From NCBI RefSeq assembly GCF_036507355.1, contig NZ_AP027877.1: a DNA stretch of 64,000 nt; one strand, 5' to 3'. This document shows positions 21,001 to 27,000 of the stretch, piece by piece. The stretch comes from Escherichia coli. Lineage in GTDB: Bacteria > Pseudomonadota > Gammaproteobacteria > Enterobacterales > Enterobacteriaceae. Each line of letters begins with the position of its first letter. The stretch's first letter is position 1. A program made the position numbers.

Positions 21001-24000
21001 GCGCGTTGAGCGCATTCGCGCGGGCGACGTTTTCGATCCGCAAACTAACTTCGGCCCGCTGGTCAGCTTCCCGCATCGCGATAACGTGCTGCGCTATATC
21101 GCCAAAGGCAAAGAGGAAGGCGCGCGCGTACTGTGCGGCGGCGATGTACTGAAAGGCGATGGCCTCGATAACGGCGCATGGGTTGCACCGACCGTGTTCA
21201 CCGATTGCAGCGACGAGATGACCATCGTGCGTGAAGAGATCTTCGGGCCGGTGATGTCCATTCTGACCTACGAGTCGGAAGACGAAGTCATTCGCCGCGC
21301 CAATGATACCGACTACGGTCTGGCGGCGGGTATCGTGACGACGGACCTGAACCGCGCGCATCGCGTCATTCATCAGCTGGAAGCGGGTATTTGCTGGATC
21401 AACACCTGGGGCGAATCCCCGGCAGAGATGCCCGTTGGCGGCTACAAACACTCCGGTATTGGCCGCGAGAACGGCGTGATGACGCTCCAGAGTTACACCC
21501 AGGTGAAGTCCATCCAGGTTGAGATGGCTAAATTCCAGTCCATATTCTAACCAGGAGGTTTATTTGCAATTTGACTACATCATTATTGGTGCCGGCTCAG
21601 CCGGCAACGTTCTCGCTACCCGTCTGACTGAAGATCCGAATACCTCCGTGCTGCTGCTTGAAGCGGGCGGCCCGGACTATCGCTTTGACTTCCGCACCCA
21701 GATGCCCGCTGCCCTGGCATTCCCGCTACAGGGTAAACGCTACAACTGGGCTTACGAGACGGAACCTGAACCGTTTATGAATAACCGTCGCATGGAGTGC
21801 GGACGCGGTAAAGGCCTGGGTGGATCGTCGCTGATCAACGGCATGTGCTACATCCGTGGCAACGCGATGGATCTCGACAACTGGGCAAAAGAACCCGGTC
21901 TGGAGAACTGGAGTTATCTCGATTGCCTGCCCTACTACCGCAAGGCCGAGACCCGCGACGTGGGCGAGAACGACTACCACGGCGGCGACGGCCCGGTGAG
22001 CGTCACCACCTCCAAACCCGGCGTCAATCCGCTGTTTGAAGCGATGATTGAAGCGGGCGTGCAGGCGGGCTACCCGCGCACGGACGATCTCAACGGTTAT
22101 CAGCAGGAAGGTTTCGGCCCGATGGATCGCACCGTCACGCCGCAGGGCCGCCGCGCCAGCACCGCGCGCAGTTATCTCGATCAGGCCAAATCGCGCCCAA
22201 ACCTGACCATTCGTACTCACGCCATGACCGATCACATTATTTTTGACGGTAAACGCGCGGTAGGCGTCGAGTGGCTGGAAGGCGACAGCACCATTCCGAC
22301 CCGCGCGACGGCGAACAAAGAAGTGCTGTTATGTGCAGGCGCGATTGCCTCACCGCAGATCCTGCAACGCTCTGGCGTCGGCAACGCTGAACTGTTGGCC
22401 GAGTTTGATATTCCGCTGGTGCATGATTTACCCGGCGTCGGTGAAAATCTTCAGGATCATCTGGAGATGTATCTGCAATATGAGTGCAAAGAACCGGTTT
22501 CCCTCTACCCTGCCCTGCAGTGGTGGAATCAGCCGAAAATCGGTGCGGAGTGGCTGTTTGGCGGCACCGGCGTTGGTGCCAGCAACCACTTTGAAGCAGG
22601 CGGATTTATTCGCAGCCGAGAGGAATTTGCGTGGCCGAATATTCAGTACCATTTCCTGCCAGTAGCGATTAACTATAACGGCTCGAATGCAGTGAAAGAG
22701 CACGGCTTCCAGTGCCACGTCGGATCGATGCGCTCGCCAAGCCGTGGGCATGTGCGGATTAAATCCCGCGACCCGCACCAGCATCCGGCGATTCTGTTTA
22801 ACTACATGTCGCACGAGCAGGACTGGCAGGAGTTCCGCGACGCAATTCGCATCACCCGCGAGATCATGCATCAACCGGCGCTGGATCAGTATCGTGGCCG
22901 CGAAATCAGCCCCGGCACGGAATGTCAGACGGATGAGCAGCTCGATGAGTTCGTGCGTAATCACGCCGAAACCGCCTTCCATCCGTGCGGTACCTGCAAA
23001 ATGGGCTACGACGAGATGTCCGTGGTTGACGGCGAAGGCCGCGTGCATGGGCTGGAAGGCCTACGCGTGGTGGATGCGTCAATTATGCCGCAGATTATCA
23101 CCGGCAATTTGAACGCCACGACAATTATGATTGGCGAGAAAATAGCGGACATGATTCGTGGACAGGAAGCGCTGCCAAGGAGCACGGCGGGATATTTTGT
23201 GGCAAATGGGATGCCGGTGAGAGCGAAAAAATGAGTCGTGATGTGAACTAACGCAGGAACCGATCAGATTGAGAGTTACCGTTCCAGAGAGGGGGGCTGA
23301 ATCCTTATATAAACACTGAGGTAACTCTCATGCTTCATAGTGACAACCTCGCCAGCAAATTCTAAGCGGACTCGTTCAATCTGGCTGATGAAGGTGCTAT
23401 GAATGCACTGATAAACCGCAGGTGAAATGCCACTCAGCTTAAGAATTACGCCGCTAGTGTTCCTGGCTATGGTGACTTGTTCACTCCCGCTCACGGTTAG
23501 CATATACGAAAAGGGTTCTTGAAACGAGGACAAAAATAAGTCAGACCAAAACAACGTGGAGCTTTAAACACGATTCGTATAATTTATTAGCAGTGATTTA
23601 TTTTTACTCTTCTTTAGTTAATCATCATGCTTAAATATTTTTTAGCACAAGATTATCGCTTCGCTAACATTTTAGTTTACATTGATTTCCAATTGATAAT
23701 AAAAAGTTGTTAATAAGTTTATGCGAAAAATAAAAATTGTTGAAATACTCTCCAGCAAACGAATGCAAAATAAACAAACTGAGGTTTACAAAAAAACAAA
23801 AGCTATTCAAAAGAACATTTTTAATTTATTAGCAGAGTTCATTAACAATGGTTTACTCACGACCAGAAAATTAAAGAACACCTTGCAATAATATGTATTT
23901 ATAAATTCATATCATTGATATTAAACTAATCTCACCTTCTACCTTATAATTTCACCAACCAAAAACAAAAGAAAAATCAATTAGATACACAATAAAGCGT

Positions 24001-27000
24001 TCTCGCAAGAAATAATGTCAAATATCTCAAACTAATAAAAACAACTAAAACATTAGACGTAACACACATCCCACACGACCTGTCGCTCATAGCTTTTATA
24101 TTTATTTTTTCACATCAATGTAGATAAAAACACGCATTAAAAATGATTTGTAGAAAAGCTGCACAATAAATAGTTCATATTTAATCTGTTGCGTAGAACT
24201 ACTATTCAAAAAATCTTATTAATGAGATAATGAGATTACATCGATAACGTTCTGATGGCAGGCATACTTATCTGGGTGTGCCTCTTTTTTTTACAACTGT
24301 ACACGGTGGCGTATGACGAGAAAATATCTCACACAGGATGAAGTCTACAGGCTGATGGATGCAGCCCAGAGCATGTCCTTTCCTGAAAGAAATCGCTGTC
24401 TAATTATGATGGCTTTCATTCACGGTTTTAGGGCCAGTGAACTTCTTGATTTACGTTTATCCGATATTGATGCATCAGGAAAACAACTTAATATTCGGCG
24501 TATTAAAAATGGTTTCTCGACGACACATCCTCTTCTTCCTGATGAATATAATTTGATCAAGTTGTGGCTTAAGCAGAGGAAGTTAATTGAAAACGGAGTT
24601 GAAGGAGACTGGCTTTTTCTCTCCCGGAAACGCCGCCCTATCAGCAGACAACATTTTTTTTCTATCATTCGTGAGGCTGGAAAACGTGCAGGATTTGAAT
24701 CGCCACGGATAATCTAGACACTTCCGAGCCGTTGATAATACTGGTTTTCATATTCTGTCGGTGACATCTGATCGCTGGAACCATGCCGACGCTTACTGTT
24801 ATAAAACATTTCGATGTAATCAAAAATATCGCTGCGGGCTTCTTCCCGCGTTCCGTAGATCTTTTTCTTTATCCGTTCGCGTTTCAACAACTGGAAAAAG
24901 CTTTCTGCAACCGCATTATCATGGCAGTTACCGCGACGGCTCATGCTGCCATCCAGGCCGTGTGATTTCAGGAACGACTGCCACTCATGGCTTGTGTACT
25001 GACTGCCCTGATCCGAATGAACCAGCACCTGTTTTTGGGGATTACGGCGCCATACAGCCATCAGCAGTGCGTTCAGGACAATGTCCTTTGTCATCCGGGA
25101 TTGCATGGACCAGCCGATAATTTTGCGTGAGAACAGATCAACAACCACGGCAAGATACAGCCAGCCTTCGTGGGTCCTGATGTAGGTTATGTCCGTTACC
25201 CAACGCTTATCCGGAGCATCCGGATTGAACTGTCGCTGGAGCCTGTTGGGCGACACGATACTGGCCTCGCCTTTACGTGCCCGCGGGCTCCGGTATGCGC
25301 GAGGTTACCGACTGCGGCCTGAGTTTTTTAAGTGACGTAAAATCGTGTTGAGGCCAACGCCCATAATGCGGGCTGTTGCCCGGCATCCAACGCCATTCAT
25401 GGCCATATCAATGATTTTCTGGTGCGTACCGGGTTGAGAAGCGGTGTAAGTGAACTGCAGTTGCCATGTTTTACGGCAGTGAGAGCAGAGATAGCGCTGA
25501 TGTCCGGCGGTGCTTTTGCCGTTACGCACCACCCCGTCAGTAGCTGAACAGGAGGGACAGCTGATAGAAACAGAAGCCACTGGAGCACCTCAAAAACACC
25601 ATCATACACTAAATCAGTAAGTTGGCAGCATCACCGCCATCTTAAATGACTCTGAGGTGTCTGTTAAACCCGTGGCGATTCAATTGCCTGCAAAAGGAAC
25701 AACTAAAAAGCTGGTTTAGTGCCGTGCGTAGCCTCAATAATCCTATTGCATCGGCCTATCTCCAAGTACTTTTGCTCACTGGTGCTCGGCGTGAAGAAAT
25801 TGCGTCGCTTCGCTGGTCAGACGTAGATTTCAAATGGTCAAGCATGCGAATTAAAGACAAGATCGAAGGTGAACGTATCATCCCTCTCACTCCTTATGTT
25901 TCTGAATTGTTAAATGTACTAGCGCAATCCCCAAATTCTGACGTAAATAAGGAGGGTTGGGTTTTCAGAAGTAACAGTAAAAGTGGCAAAATTATTGAGC
26001 CGCGTTCAGCGCACAACAGAGCGTTAGTGCTGGCTGAGTTACCACATATCAGCCTTCACGGTTTACGTCGTAGTTTTGGTACTTTGGCCGAGTGGGTTGA
26101 AGTTCCCACTGGTATTGTTGCTCAAATTATGGGACACAAACCCAGCGCTCTTGCCGAAAAACACTATCGCCGTCGTCCGTTAGATCTGTTACGAAAATGG
26201 CACGAGAAAATTGAGACATGGATCTTAAATGAAGCAGGTATTACCATAAAAAACAACGTTGATATGCGTTGATTCCATTAAAAATCAACATATTACAAAA
26301 TATCATCAACTATTGAACAAGATAGATTTTCATGTATCGTAATACACAGTTTAGTCAATGATACAGCAACTACACAGGAGATAAGCCAATGGCAACCACA
26401 GCAACTGTATCCATAGAACCCACTCTGGCAGCTATCAGAGCTCGCTGGTGTATTAATTCAAGTAAAACAACTCAATCCTTTAACGATCCTGCGTCCATGG
26501 AAGAGGTTGTCGAGTATCTCAAAGGAACATACTCAGCTCTTCGCAAGTCTGTCGCATGCGCCAAACTGAAAATTTTACATCTTAAACAAAGAATGCAAAA
26601 TGCTACTAACTTTCTCGCGCGTCTGATGTCATGTAAAAATCAGGCATCCAGATCGCATCACAGTACGGCTAAATCAGCTAAAAGTGCCTTATCATCAGAT
26701 TCAGGTGATGGTAGTGACCCCGACCCCGAGCCCGAAACGTTTCCTTCTGCCTTCATTACTACCCCTACTAATTCAATAATGCTTAAAGCTTTCTTTGCCA
26801 ATATCTCAATCACTGAGGTGGCAAAATGAGCGCATTCAAACTCCCGGATACATCTCAATCACAGCTCATTTCAACAGCTGAGTTAGCTAAAATCATTAGC
26901 TACAAATCTCAAACCATTCGTAAATGGCTTTGTCAGGACAAATTGCCTGAGGGGCTACCTCGCCCAAAACAAATCAATGGCCGCCATTACTGGTTACGTA

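What the first reader, a model, noticed from the sequence alone, without database searches (positions are those of the whole stretch)
23235..24717. Decayed FimB/FimE-like recombinase locus next to betA
A FimB/FimE-type recombinase gene is cut off after 134 codons by an IS3-family fragment. It is preceded by about 1 kb of very AT-rich DNA containing a 13-bp direct repeat aatttattagcag at 23581-23593 and 23823-23835. This could be the relic of a recombinase-controlled phase switch whose target was lost in the rearrangements.
Basis: seen in the sequence. Interest (0 to 1): 0.42.

Follow-up and report, generated by a model that had tools for sequence, protein, structure and literature searches.

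The report
IS-truncated ipbA (fimX) invertase remnant
This is the left-hand stump of a well-known E. coli island (PAI-X): the phase-switch recombinase gene ipbA/fimX/hbiF, cut after codon 127 by an insertion sequence, with its switch hyxS and the genes it controls deleted, so it is ordinary genome decay and not a new system.

Summary
Window 24313-24717 is a 134-codon ORF. Its first 127 codons are identical to IpbA (also called FimX or HbiF), the 187-aa FimB/FimE-type DNA invertase encoded next to betA in about 35% of complete E. coli genomes. Homology stops at 24695, where the end of an IS3-family element begins. The roughly 1 kb of AT-rich DNA upstream is not decay. It is the native ipbA upstream region and is collinear with intact loci (89-99.8% identity). 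The repeat is 14 bp (TAATTTATTAGCAG), only marginally beyond chance, and its second copy is partly conserved.

Intact loci read betA, AT-rich leader, ipbA, hyxS, hyxR, hyxA, hyxB, ykgH. hyxS is an invertible promoter of about 270 bp with 16-bp inverted repeats. It lies downstream of ipbA, not in the AT-rich DNA. The window lacks the last 60 codons of ipbA, which carry four of the five catalytic residues, and it lacks hyxS and hyxRAB. It also lacks about 29 kb of backbone (ykgH to the 5' part of intF). A single IS3-family element, gutted by an IS1 fragment, joins ipbA' to the 3' end of intF of the CP4-6 prophage.

The system is already known. Interest is low.

The parts
23235..23339 (+). betA 3' flank shared by nearly all E. 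coli. It contains an 11-bp perfect inverted repeat, TGAGAGTTACC / GGTAACTCTCA, at 23270-23280 and 23320-23330. The left edge of the PAI-X island lies at about 23339/23340.
   Evidence: Genomes without ipbA match only query positions 1-105 of 23235-24312. The inverted repeat is I10.
23340..24312 (+). Native AT-rich upstream region of ipbA, the left arm of PAI-X. Two blocks are well conserved: 23535-23734 (93-98%) and 24135-24312 (95-99%). They flank a variable middle, 23835-23984 (67-74%).
   Evidence: Collinear alignment with six intact or other loci. Sliding-window identity. Composition. No Rfam match.
23580..23593 (+). Copy 1 of the 14-bp direct repeat TAATTTATTAGCAG. It overlaps a TATAAT hexamer at 23578-23583.
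   Evidence: In the seven-row alignment (window plus six other loci) it is exact in 6 rows and differs at one base in the seventh.
23822..23835 (+). Copy 2 of the 14-bp direct repeat.
   Evidence: It is exact in 4 of the 7 aligned rows, window included, and 12/14 in the other 3. It lies in the less conserved part of the region.
24260..24292 (+). Terminator-like hairpin (10-pair stem, 4-nt loop, 24260-24283) followed by T8 (24285-24292). The T run ends 20 nt upstream of the ipbA ATG.
   Evidence: scan; fold. The stem is conserved in all aligned loci, while the length of the T run varies. Function was not tested.
24313..24695 (+). ipbA' (fimX/hbiF): the native 5' 383 nt, which is codons 1-127 of 187. 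It retains catalytic Arg40 and lacks His135, Arg138, His161 and Tyr170.
   Evidence: [quoted passage not shown] (127/127 identical). (family match and alignment to XerA/XerD).
24696..25292 (-). Right-hand 597 bp of an IS3-family element. It holds the C-terminal 180 aa of the transposase and a terminal repeat that begins TGAATCGCCACGG at 24696. It supplies codons 128-134 and the stop codon of the fusion ORF.
   Evidence: NF033516, E=1e-76. (99.8% identical copies annotated 'IS3 family transposase' in many E. coli). (terminal repeat).
25293..25636 (-). IS1 fragment of about 343 bp: the left end plus insA. It sits inside the IS3-family element.
   Evidence: 98.5% identical to the IS1B copy of K-12 NCM3722. 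(NF033558 IS1 transposase, N-terminal 81 positions).
25637..25682 (-). The other terminal 46 bp of the same IS3-family element. Its reverse complement begins TGAATCGCCACGG, 13/13 identical to the end at 24696.
   Evidence: The flanking trinucleotide is ATT on both sides (24693-24695 and 25683-25685).
25683..26272 (+). 'intF: the last 590 nt of the CP4-6 cryptic-prophage integrase gene. The first 811 nt are missing. It is followed by yagN, ykgV, yagM, yagL, yagK, yagJ and so on.
   Evidence: 99.6-99.7% identical to K-12 NCM3722.

Best explanation
The locus is the stump of pathogenicity island PAI-X (fimX/ipbA, hyxS, hyxR, hyxA, hyxB), which in many E. coli sits between betA and ykgH.

How the intact island works. 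IpbA/FimX is a small FimB/FimE-type tyrosine recombinase. It inverts hyxS, a promoter element of about 270 bp that begins just after its own stop codon. This switches the LuxR-type regulator hyxR ON or OFF. It can also flip fimS and ipuS elsewhere in the genome.

What happened in this genome. An IS3-family element lies at nucleotide 383 of ipbA. Its other end abuts nucleotide 812 of intF, the CP4-6 prophage integrase gene. Everything in between has been deleted: the last 60 codons of ipbA, hyxS, hyxRAB, ykgH, ykgEFG, rcl, ecp, pao and the 5' part of intF. That is about 29 kb of K-12-type backbone plus about 4.7 kb of PAI-X.

Inferred steps. The deletion most likely arose in one of two ways: recombination between two copies of the IS, or intramolecular transposition of one copy. 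Later an IS1 inserted into the IS, and an adjacent deletion gutted both elements.

The outcome. The remaining 127+7-codon ORF keeps only the first catalytic arginine and has no cognate site nearby. The switch is therefore dead. The AT-rich 1 kb is the unaltered native upstream region of ipbA.
For: Identity of the gene:
- The first 127 aa are identical to SE15 IpbA.
- NCBIfam DNA-invertase models match. The intact protein scores 251.6 bits against a cut-off of 221, and the window copy scores 134.3.

Intact architecture:
- The gene order betA, ipbA, hyxR, hyxA, hyxB, ykgH is seen in SE15, FY10, strain 21310 and EC93.
- The hyxS 16-bp inverted repeats lie at L002 9658 and 9920. This matches the '16-bp repeats' reported in PMC6083910.

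Published function:
- FimX inverts hyxS, which controls hyxR, and also acts at fimS and ipuS (PMC6083910, PMC6458436, PMC8777976, PMC3789825).

Loss in the window:
- Homology ends at 24695.
- The hyxS core is absent even with 3 mismatches allowed.
- The rest of PAI-X gives no BLAST hit in the window.
- K-12 L008 positions 660-29845 are absent. The genes in that interval are listed.

Junction anatomy:
- IS3-family transposase fragment, both terminal repeats of the IS, the IS1 fragment and the intF 3' part.

Catalytic residues:
- They were placed by alignment to XerA and XerD and motif positions.
Against: Nothing contradicts this reading. The limits are these:
- The order and mechanism of the IS events are inferred from the anatomy alone.
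- The ancestor is assumed to have had K-12-like content between ykgH and intF.
- The deleted genes could exist elsewhere in the genome, outside the 64-kb window.
- This exact junction is not in any of the 5,426 complete E. coli genomes searched, nor in the species-representative genomes. It does occur on four short public contigs that encode the same 134-aa fusion ORF.
Confidence: 0.95

Rival explanations
1. The AT-rich kilobase, with its direct repeat, is itself the degenerate remains of the invertible element or target of the recombinase.
For: The region is unusually AT-rich, down to 26% GC. It carries a 14-bp exact direct repeat that is mildly beyond chance, at 1.4-2.6% of simulations. Invertible promoters such as fimS are also AT-rich.
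Against: - The region is collinear over its full length with loci that have intact ipbA and hyxS, and nothing is missing.
- The cognate element lies downstream of ipbA (PMC6083910).
- The longest exact inverted repeat in the region is 11 bp, which is within the simulated range.
- The repeats are direct, not inverted.
- Whole-genome inversion mapping in UTI89 and CFT073 overexpressing FimX found only fimS, hyxS and ipuS (PMC6458436).
Confidence: 0.02
2. The gene is the remnant of an ordinary phage or island integrase with no role in phase variation. This is the refutation condition the first reader set.
For: The gene lies in a horizontally acquired island. It is next to a second, true integrase remnant ('intF, 25683-26272). 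It also hits the generic tyrosine-recombinase (Xer and integron integrase) NCBIfam models and the Pfam family PF00589 Phage_integrase.
Against: - The best family matches are the FimB/FimE-type DNA-invertase subfamilies, and the intact orthologue scores above their curated cut-offs.
- The intact protein is only 187 aa and aligns to the catalytic domain alone of XerA and XerD.
- An inverted-repeat-bounded element lies directly downstream in intact loci.
- Inversion activity is documented experimentally (PMC6083910, PMC6458436).
Confidence: 0.01
3. The conserved AT-rich leader is a dedicated regulatory region, comparable to the long nanC-fimB intergenic region. On this reading it holds remote operator sites, among them the 14-mer, and a leader attenuator. 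It survives intact here although its gene is dead.
For: - Two blocks are much better conserved (93-99%) than the DNA between them (67-74%) across diverged lineages.
- Copy 1 of the 14-mer is nearly invariant.
- A conserved terminator-like hairpin with a T8 run ends 20 nt before the ATG.
Against: - No regulator, transcription start or binding data were available.
- The promoter-like count does not exceed the shuffled controls.
- The fold z-score of the leader is about 0.
- There is no Rfam match.
- Copy 2 of the 14-mer varies between lineages.
- The conservation could simply reflect the recent spread of the island within one species.
Confidence: 0.2

Closest known systems
PAI-X: fimX (ipbA, hbiF), hyxS, hyxRAB of extraintestinal pathogenic E. 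coli (UTI89, CFT073, EC958)
   Same: The chromosomal site next to betA is the same. The upstream region is the same at 89-99.8% identity. The first 127 codons of the recombinase are identical.
   Different: The window copy lacks codons 128-187, hyxS, hyxR, hyxA and hyxB. An IS3-family element joins it to the CP4-6 intF gene.
fimB/fimE-fimS type 1 fimbrial switch of E. coli
   Same: It uses the same subfamily of small tyrosine DNA invertases (NF007370, NF007371). The recombinase gene is likewise adjacent to an invertible promoter. It also has a long AT-rich upstream region; that last point is my own knowledge of the nanC-fimB intergenic region.
   Different: The inverted repeats differ: 9 bp in fimS against 16 bp in hyxS (PMC6083910). 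The output differs too: a LuxR-type regulator rather than fimbrial genes. There is a single recombinase rather than a pair.
ipuA/ipuB-ipuS-ipuR-upaE switch of CFT073
   Same: The design is the same: a Fim-type recombinase, then an invertible promoter, then a LuxR-type regulator and an autotransporter (PMC6083910). hyxB is also an autotransporter (PMC3789825).
   Different: It lies on a different island. Its repeats are 7 bp. Its switch overlaps the end of the recombinase gene.
Other decayed ipbA alleles, such as O157:H7 strain 86-24 and FDAARGOS_943
   Same: The recombinase is inactivated in a non-uropathogenic lineage.
   Different: Those alleles are frameshifted at a T8-to-T7 tract, and they carry IS insertions or stop codons in hyxR. 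The rest of the island remains in place. Here the island is deleted from codon 128 onward.

Membership tests
FimB/FimE-type tyrosine DNA invertase (IpbA/FimX/HbiF) | Sequence match to the curated DNA-invertase subfamily models at or above their cut-off | tested here: not met
   The window ORF scores 134.3 bits against a cut-off of 221 (NF007370) because it is truncated. The intact SE15 orthologue scores 251.6 and 233.2 bits, above both cut-offs. The window ORF is a fragment of a member, not a functional member.
FimB/FimE-type tyrosine DNA invertase (IpbA/FimX/HbiF) | Complete catalytic set Arg-His-Arg-(His)-Tyr of tyrosine recombinases | tested here: not met
   By alignment to XerA and XerD and motif positions, the residues are R40, H135, R138, H161 and Y170. 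The window copy ends its native sequence at G127 and so retains only R40.
FimB/FimE-type tyrosine DNA invertase (IpbA/FimX/HbiF) | Orthology: the same gene at the same site as the named ipbA | tested here: met
   The first 127 aa are 127/127 identical. The bet operon and the betA-ipbA spacer are collinear over 7.4-9.5 kb at 96-98.8% identity. RefSeq annotation agrees.
Recombinase-controlled invertible promoter (hyxS-type phase switch) | DNA segment bounded by inverted repeats next to the recombinase gene | tested here: not met
   It is present in intact loci: 16-bp inverted repeats 240 nt apart, at L002 9658 and 9920. It is absent from the window: 0 matches to the core with up to 3 mismatches, and no homology past 24695.
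Recombinase-controlled invertible promoter (hyxS-type phase switch) | Observed inversion, with both orientations present in a population | not testable with these tools
   Known only from the literature for intact loci (PMC6083910, PMC6458436). No read data were available here.
PAI-X island | Gene set fimX-hyxR-hyxA-hyxB between betA and ykgH | tested here: not met
   Only the left 1.36 kb (23340-24695) remains. hyxRAB and ykgH have no match in the window.
IS3-family insertion sequence | DDE transposase of the IS3 family and terminal inverted repeats beginning with TG | tested here: met
   NF033516 scores E=1e-76, 258.6 bits against a cut-off of 160, over the C-terminal 168 model positions. 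The ends TGAATCGCCACGG at 24696 and, reverse-complemented, at 25682 are 13/13 identical. orfA and the N-terminal part of orfB are missing, replaced by an IS1 fragment.
Phage or island integrase (rival) | Protein of about 350-450 aa with N-terminal DNA-binding domains, next to an attachment site | tested here: not met
   Intact IpbA is 187 aa and aligns only to the catalytic domain of XerA (residues 138-310) and XerD (residues 109-283). The neighbouring 'intF does belong to this family.

The most novel reading that the evidence does not exclude
The ipbA upstream kilobase may be a specific regulatory module that nobody has dissected. It has two strongly conserved blocks, a nearly invariant 14-mer (with a less conserved second copy) that overlaps a TATAAT hexamer, and a conserved terminator-like leader hairpin 20 nt before the start codon. 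It might hold remote operator sites and a leader attenuator that keep recombinase levels low, as the nanC-fimB region does for fimB. In this genome it would survive as an orphan. A related reading concerns sister loci: the palindromic right end of hyxS may let FimX excise the switch as well as invert it.
Probability: 0.15. Interest if true: 0.3.

Novelty: already known. Interest (0 to 1): 0.08.

Why it matters
It matters little. The result assigns a named, experimentally characterised system (ipbA/fimX/hbiF, hyxS, hyxR, PAI-X) to the finding. It shows that this genome has lost the switch through an IS-associated deletion of about 34 kb, which also removed the ecp, pao, rcl, ykgEFG and ykgH genes. 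This is a routine example of IS-driven genome reduction in an IS-rich E. coli or Shigella-like lineage. Its main use is for annotation: label the ORF as an ipbA pseudogene and do not infer phase variation here.

Tried and rejected
- Rfam scan of 23100-24800 at E<=1 gave no match.
- The sigma-70 promoter scan of the AT-rich region found no more sites than the shuffled controls. The fold of the leader had a z-score of about 0.
- The minus-strand 92-aa ORF 23276-23554 was examined as a possible island gene. It has no NCBIfam hit. Its only homologues are same-locus E. coli hypotheticals without Pfam domains. Substitutions are spread evenly over the three codon positions (13/15/14 against FY10), with 25 nonsynonymous and 6 synonymous codon changes. 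I rejected it as a gene.
- I searched for this exact ipbA'-IS junction. No complete E. coli genome covers 80% or more of 24300-26300. The scan of species-representative genomes gave 0 hits. The exact 134-aa fusion ORF occurs only on four contigs of 1.5 kb or less. The source organism could not be named.
- Naming the IS3-family element failed. RefSeq calls identical copies only 'IS3 family transposase'.
- Several key papers were not held in the library, so their content is cited only through papers that quote them: Bateman & Seed 2012; Bateman et al. 2013; Hannan et al. 2008; Bryan et al. 2006.
- The ykgEFG-like genes at 37186-40054 first looked like the displaced right flank of the island. They are only 83% identical and belong to a separate lactate-utilisation cluster with dld and a lactate permease. 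I rejected them as the flank.
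Full report
**Observation.** The region was read directly and its ORFs were listed. betA ends at 23234. A 134-codon ORF runs from 24313 to 24717 on the + strand. The 1078 bp between them are 33.9% GC. The core, 23550-24300, is 28% GC, and the lowest 300-bp window is 25.7%. The direct repeat is exact and is 14 bp long (TAATTTATTAGCAG), at 23580-23593 and 23822-23835. In first-order Markov simulations of the same DNA, a repeat this long arose in 1.4-2.6% of trials. The 64-kb window holds no other copy, even with two mismatches allowed. The DNA that interrupts the ORF encodes, on the minus strand, the C-terminal 180 aa of an IS3-family transposase (NF033516, E=1e-76).

**Identity.** A megablast of 23235-24717 against 5,426 complete E. 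coli genomes found the full region in 1,886 of them. [quoted passage not shown] The first 127 residues are identical to IpbA of strain SE15, which is 187 aa long. The intact protein passes the curated cut-offs of both NCBIfam DNA-invertase subfamily models. The window fragment does not, because it is truncated. Alignment to XerA and XerD places the catalytic residues at R40, H135, R138, H161 and Y170. The window copy ends its native sequence at G127 and so keeps only R40.

**The intact locus.** In SE15, FY10, strain 21310 and EC93 the gene order is betT, betI, betB, betA, about 1.08 kb of AT-rich DNA, ipbA, hyxR, hyxA, hyxB, ykgH. Between ipbA and hyxR, SE15 carries an inverted repeat whose exact core is the 16-mer TGATTCAAAATGTCAG, at L002 9658 and reverse-complemented at 9920. 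This is hyxS, which the literature describes as follows:
- It is a promoter element with 16-bp inverted repeats, inverted only by FimX, and it controls hyxR (PMC6083910; PMC6458436).
- FimX also acts at fimS and ipuS (PMC6083910; PMC6458436; PMC8777976).
- The four-gene island (fimX, hyxRAB) is called PAI-X and occurs 'in several variations' in about half of the E. coli genomes examined (PMC3789825).

The target of the switch lies downstream of the recombinase gene, not in the AT-rich DNA.

**What is left in the window.** Homology to intact loci stops at 24695. The hyxS core has no match anywhere in the window, even with three mismatches allowed. The remainder of PAI-X (L002 9465-15100) gives no BLAST hit in the window. 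Genomes that lack the island match only 23235-23339. The left edge of the island is therefore at about 23340, and the whole AT-rich stretch belongs to the island. Across the other loci aligned, that stretch is collinear at 82-99.8% identity, and the only large difference is a 96-bp insertion in FY10. It is the native upstream region of ipbA, not debris.

**The junction.**
- Position 24696 begins TGAATCGCCACGG..., and the reverse complement of 25682 begins with the same 13 bases. Both ends of a single IS3-family element are therefore present.
- The interior of that element has been replaced by the first 343 bp or so of IS1 (25293-25636, minus strand).
- Immediately to the right, 25683-26272 is the last 590 nt of intF, the integrase gene of the CP4-6 cryptic prophage. 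It is followed by yagN, ykgV, yagM, yagL, yagK, yagJ, IS1, fbpC, mmuM and mmuP, at 99% identity to K-12 NCM3722.
- In K-12, intF and betA lie 29 kb apart in the same relative orientation. Between them are the yagP pseudogene, paoDCBA, yagU, ykgJ, ecpEDCBA-ecpR, ykgL/O/M/R, the eaeH pseudogene, IS3, rclCBA-rclR, ykgEFG and ykgH.
- None of that interval (L008 660-29845) is in the window. The only matches are an 83%-identical paralogous lactate-utilisation cluster and a 67-bp fragment.

From this I infer a collinear deletion of about 29 kb of backbone plus about 4.7 kb of PAI-X. It was mediated by the IS3-family element, either through recombination between two copies or through intramolecular transposition. 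An IS1 insertion and an adjacent internal deletion followed. Both flanks read ATT, which fits either mechanism and may be coincidence.

**The repeat and the leader.** In the seven-row alignment (window plus six other loci), copy 1 of the 14-mer is exact in six rows and has one mismatch in the seventh. Copy 2 is exact in four rows and 12/14 in three. There is no extended similarity around the two copies, so they are not the trace of a larger duplication. They also do not lie at the island boundary. Conservation along the leader is uneven. It is 93-98% at 23535-23734 and 95-99% at 24135-24312, but only 67-74% at 23835-23984. A terminator-like hairpin with a T8 run (24260-24292) ends 20 nt before the ATG and is conserved. 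These features are compatible with a regulatory leader, but nothing here tests that. The promoter scan, the fold z-score and Rfam all gave nothing above background.

**Rivals.**
- The AT-rich DNA as a relic of the switch is rejected. The region is collinear with intact loci. The repeats are direct, not inverted. The longest inverted repeat is within chance. Published genome-wide mapping found no FimX-dependent inversions beyond fimS, hyxS and ipuS (PMC6458436).
- An ordinary integrase remnant is rejected on family scores, protein size and the adjacent hyxS.
- The minus-strand 92-aa ORF at 23276-23554 is not a gene.

**Comparison and novelty.** The system is PAI-X. It works like the fimB/fimE-fimS and ipuA/ipuB-ipuS switches. 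The window holds only a dead fragment of it. Other lineages inactivate ipbA differently: O157:H7 strain 86-24 and FDAARGOS_943 carry a T8-to-T7 frameshift, together with damage to hyxR. I could not find this particular deletion allele in complete genomes. The identical fusion ORF does occur on four short public contigs.

**Verdict.** The finding is already known and is ordinary IS-driven decay. Interest is 0.08.

Noticed in passing
L002 (SE15) 9644-9949; L004 (FY10) 5743-5802; L001 (FDAARGOS_943) 9640-9699: The right inverted repeat of hyxS is half of a 27-bp near-perfect palindrome, AACCTGACATTTTGA-A-TCAAAATGTCAGGTT. A third copy of the 16-mer therefore lies in direct orientation to the left repeat. 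FY10 and FDAARGOS_943 carry a precise 271-bp deletion of hyxS between these direct copies. Their junction variants differ (TGAATC... and TGATTC...), which suggests independent excisions. The hyxS interior is found in 1802 genomes and the hyxR 5' end in 1890, so roughly 90 genomes have hyxR without the switch. I could not check whether this has been reported.
   Followed up: partly
window 24654-24661: A T8 run inside ipbA is T7 in O157:H7 strain 86-24 and in FDAARGOS_943. In both the gene is annotated as frameshifted. This looks like a slippage-prone tract that inactivates the recombinase in some lineages. The window has the in-frame T8.
   Followed up: partly
window 24260-24292: A conserved terminator-like hairpin (10-pair stem) followed by T8 ends 20 nt upstream of the ipbA start codon. 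The length of the T run varies between lineages (T7-T10). It may be a leader attenuator or the terminator of an upstream transcript. There is no Rfam match.
   Followed up: partly
window 25683-35363: This is the right-hand part of the CP4-6 cryptic prophage: 'intF, yagN, ykgV, yagM, yagL (a recombinase-family protein), yagK, yagJ, an IS1 remnant, afuB', fbpC, mmuM and mmuP. It is 99% identical to K-12 NCM3722. Two truncated tyrosine-recombinase genes, ipbA' and 'intF, therefore face each other across one IS.
   Followed up: yes
window 37186-40054 and onward to about 48000: A second lutABC/ykgEFG-like cluster lies here, only 83% identical to the K-12 ykgEFG genes. It is accompanied by dld, an L-lactate permease, an IS5-like ISKpn26 element and a GTPase-family gene, as in a minority of E. 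coli strains. It is a paralogue and not the displaced flank of PAI-X.
   Followed up: partly
window about 12700-16700: The autotransporter adhesin gene ehaA lies between pdeL and betT, as in O157:H7 86-24 and FDAARGOS_943. SE15 does not have it there. This suggests a background like EHEC or phylogroup B1/E rather than uropathogenic E. coli.
   Followed up: no
window 23276-23554 (minus strand): A 92-aa ORF overlaps the betA-distal hairpin and the left edge of the island. It is open (92-93 aa) in many E. coli, but it has no family or Pfam match. It also shows no codon-position bias in its substitutions. It is most likely a chance ORF or a long-dead remnant.
   Followed up: yes
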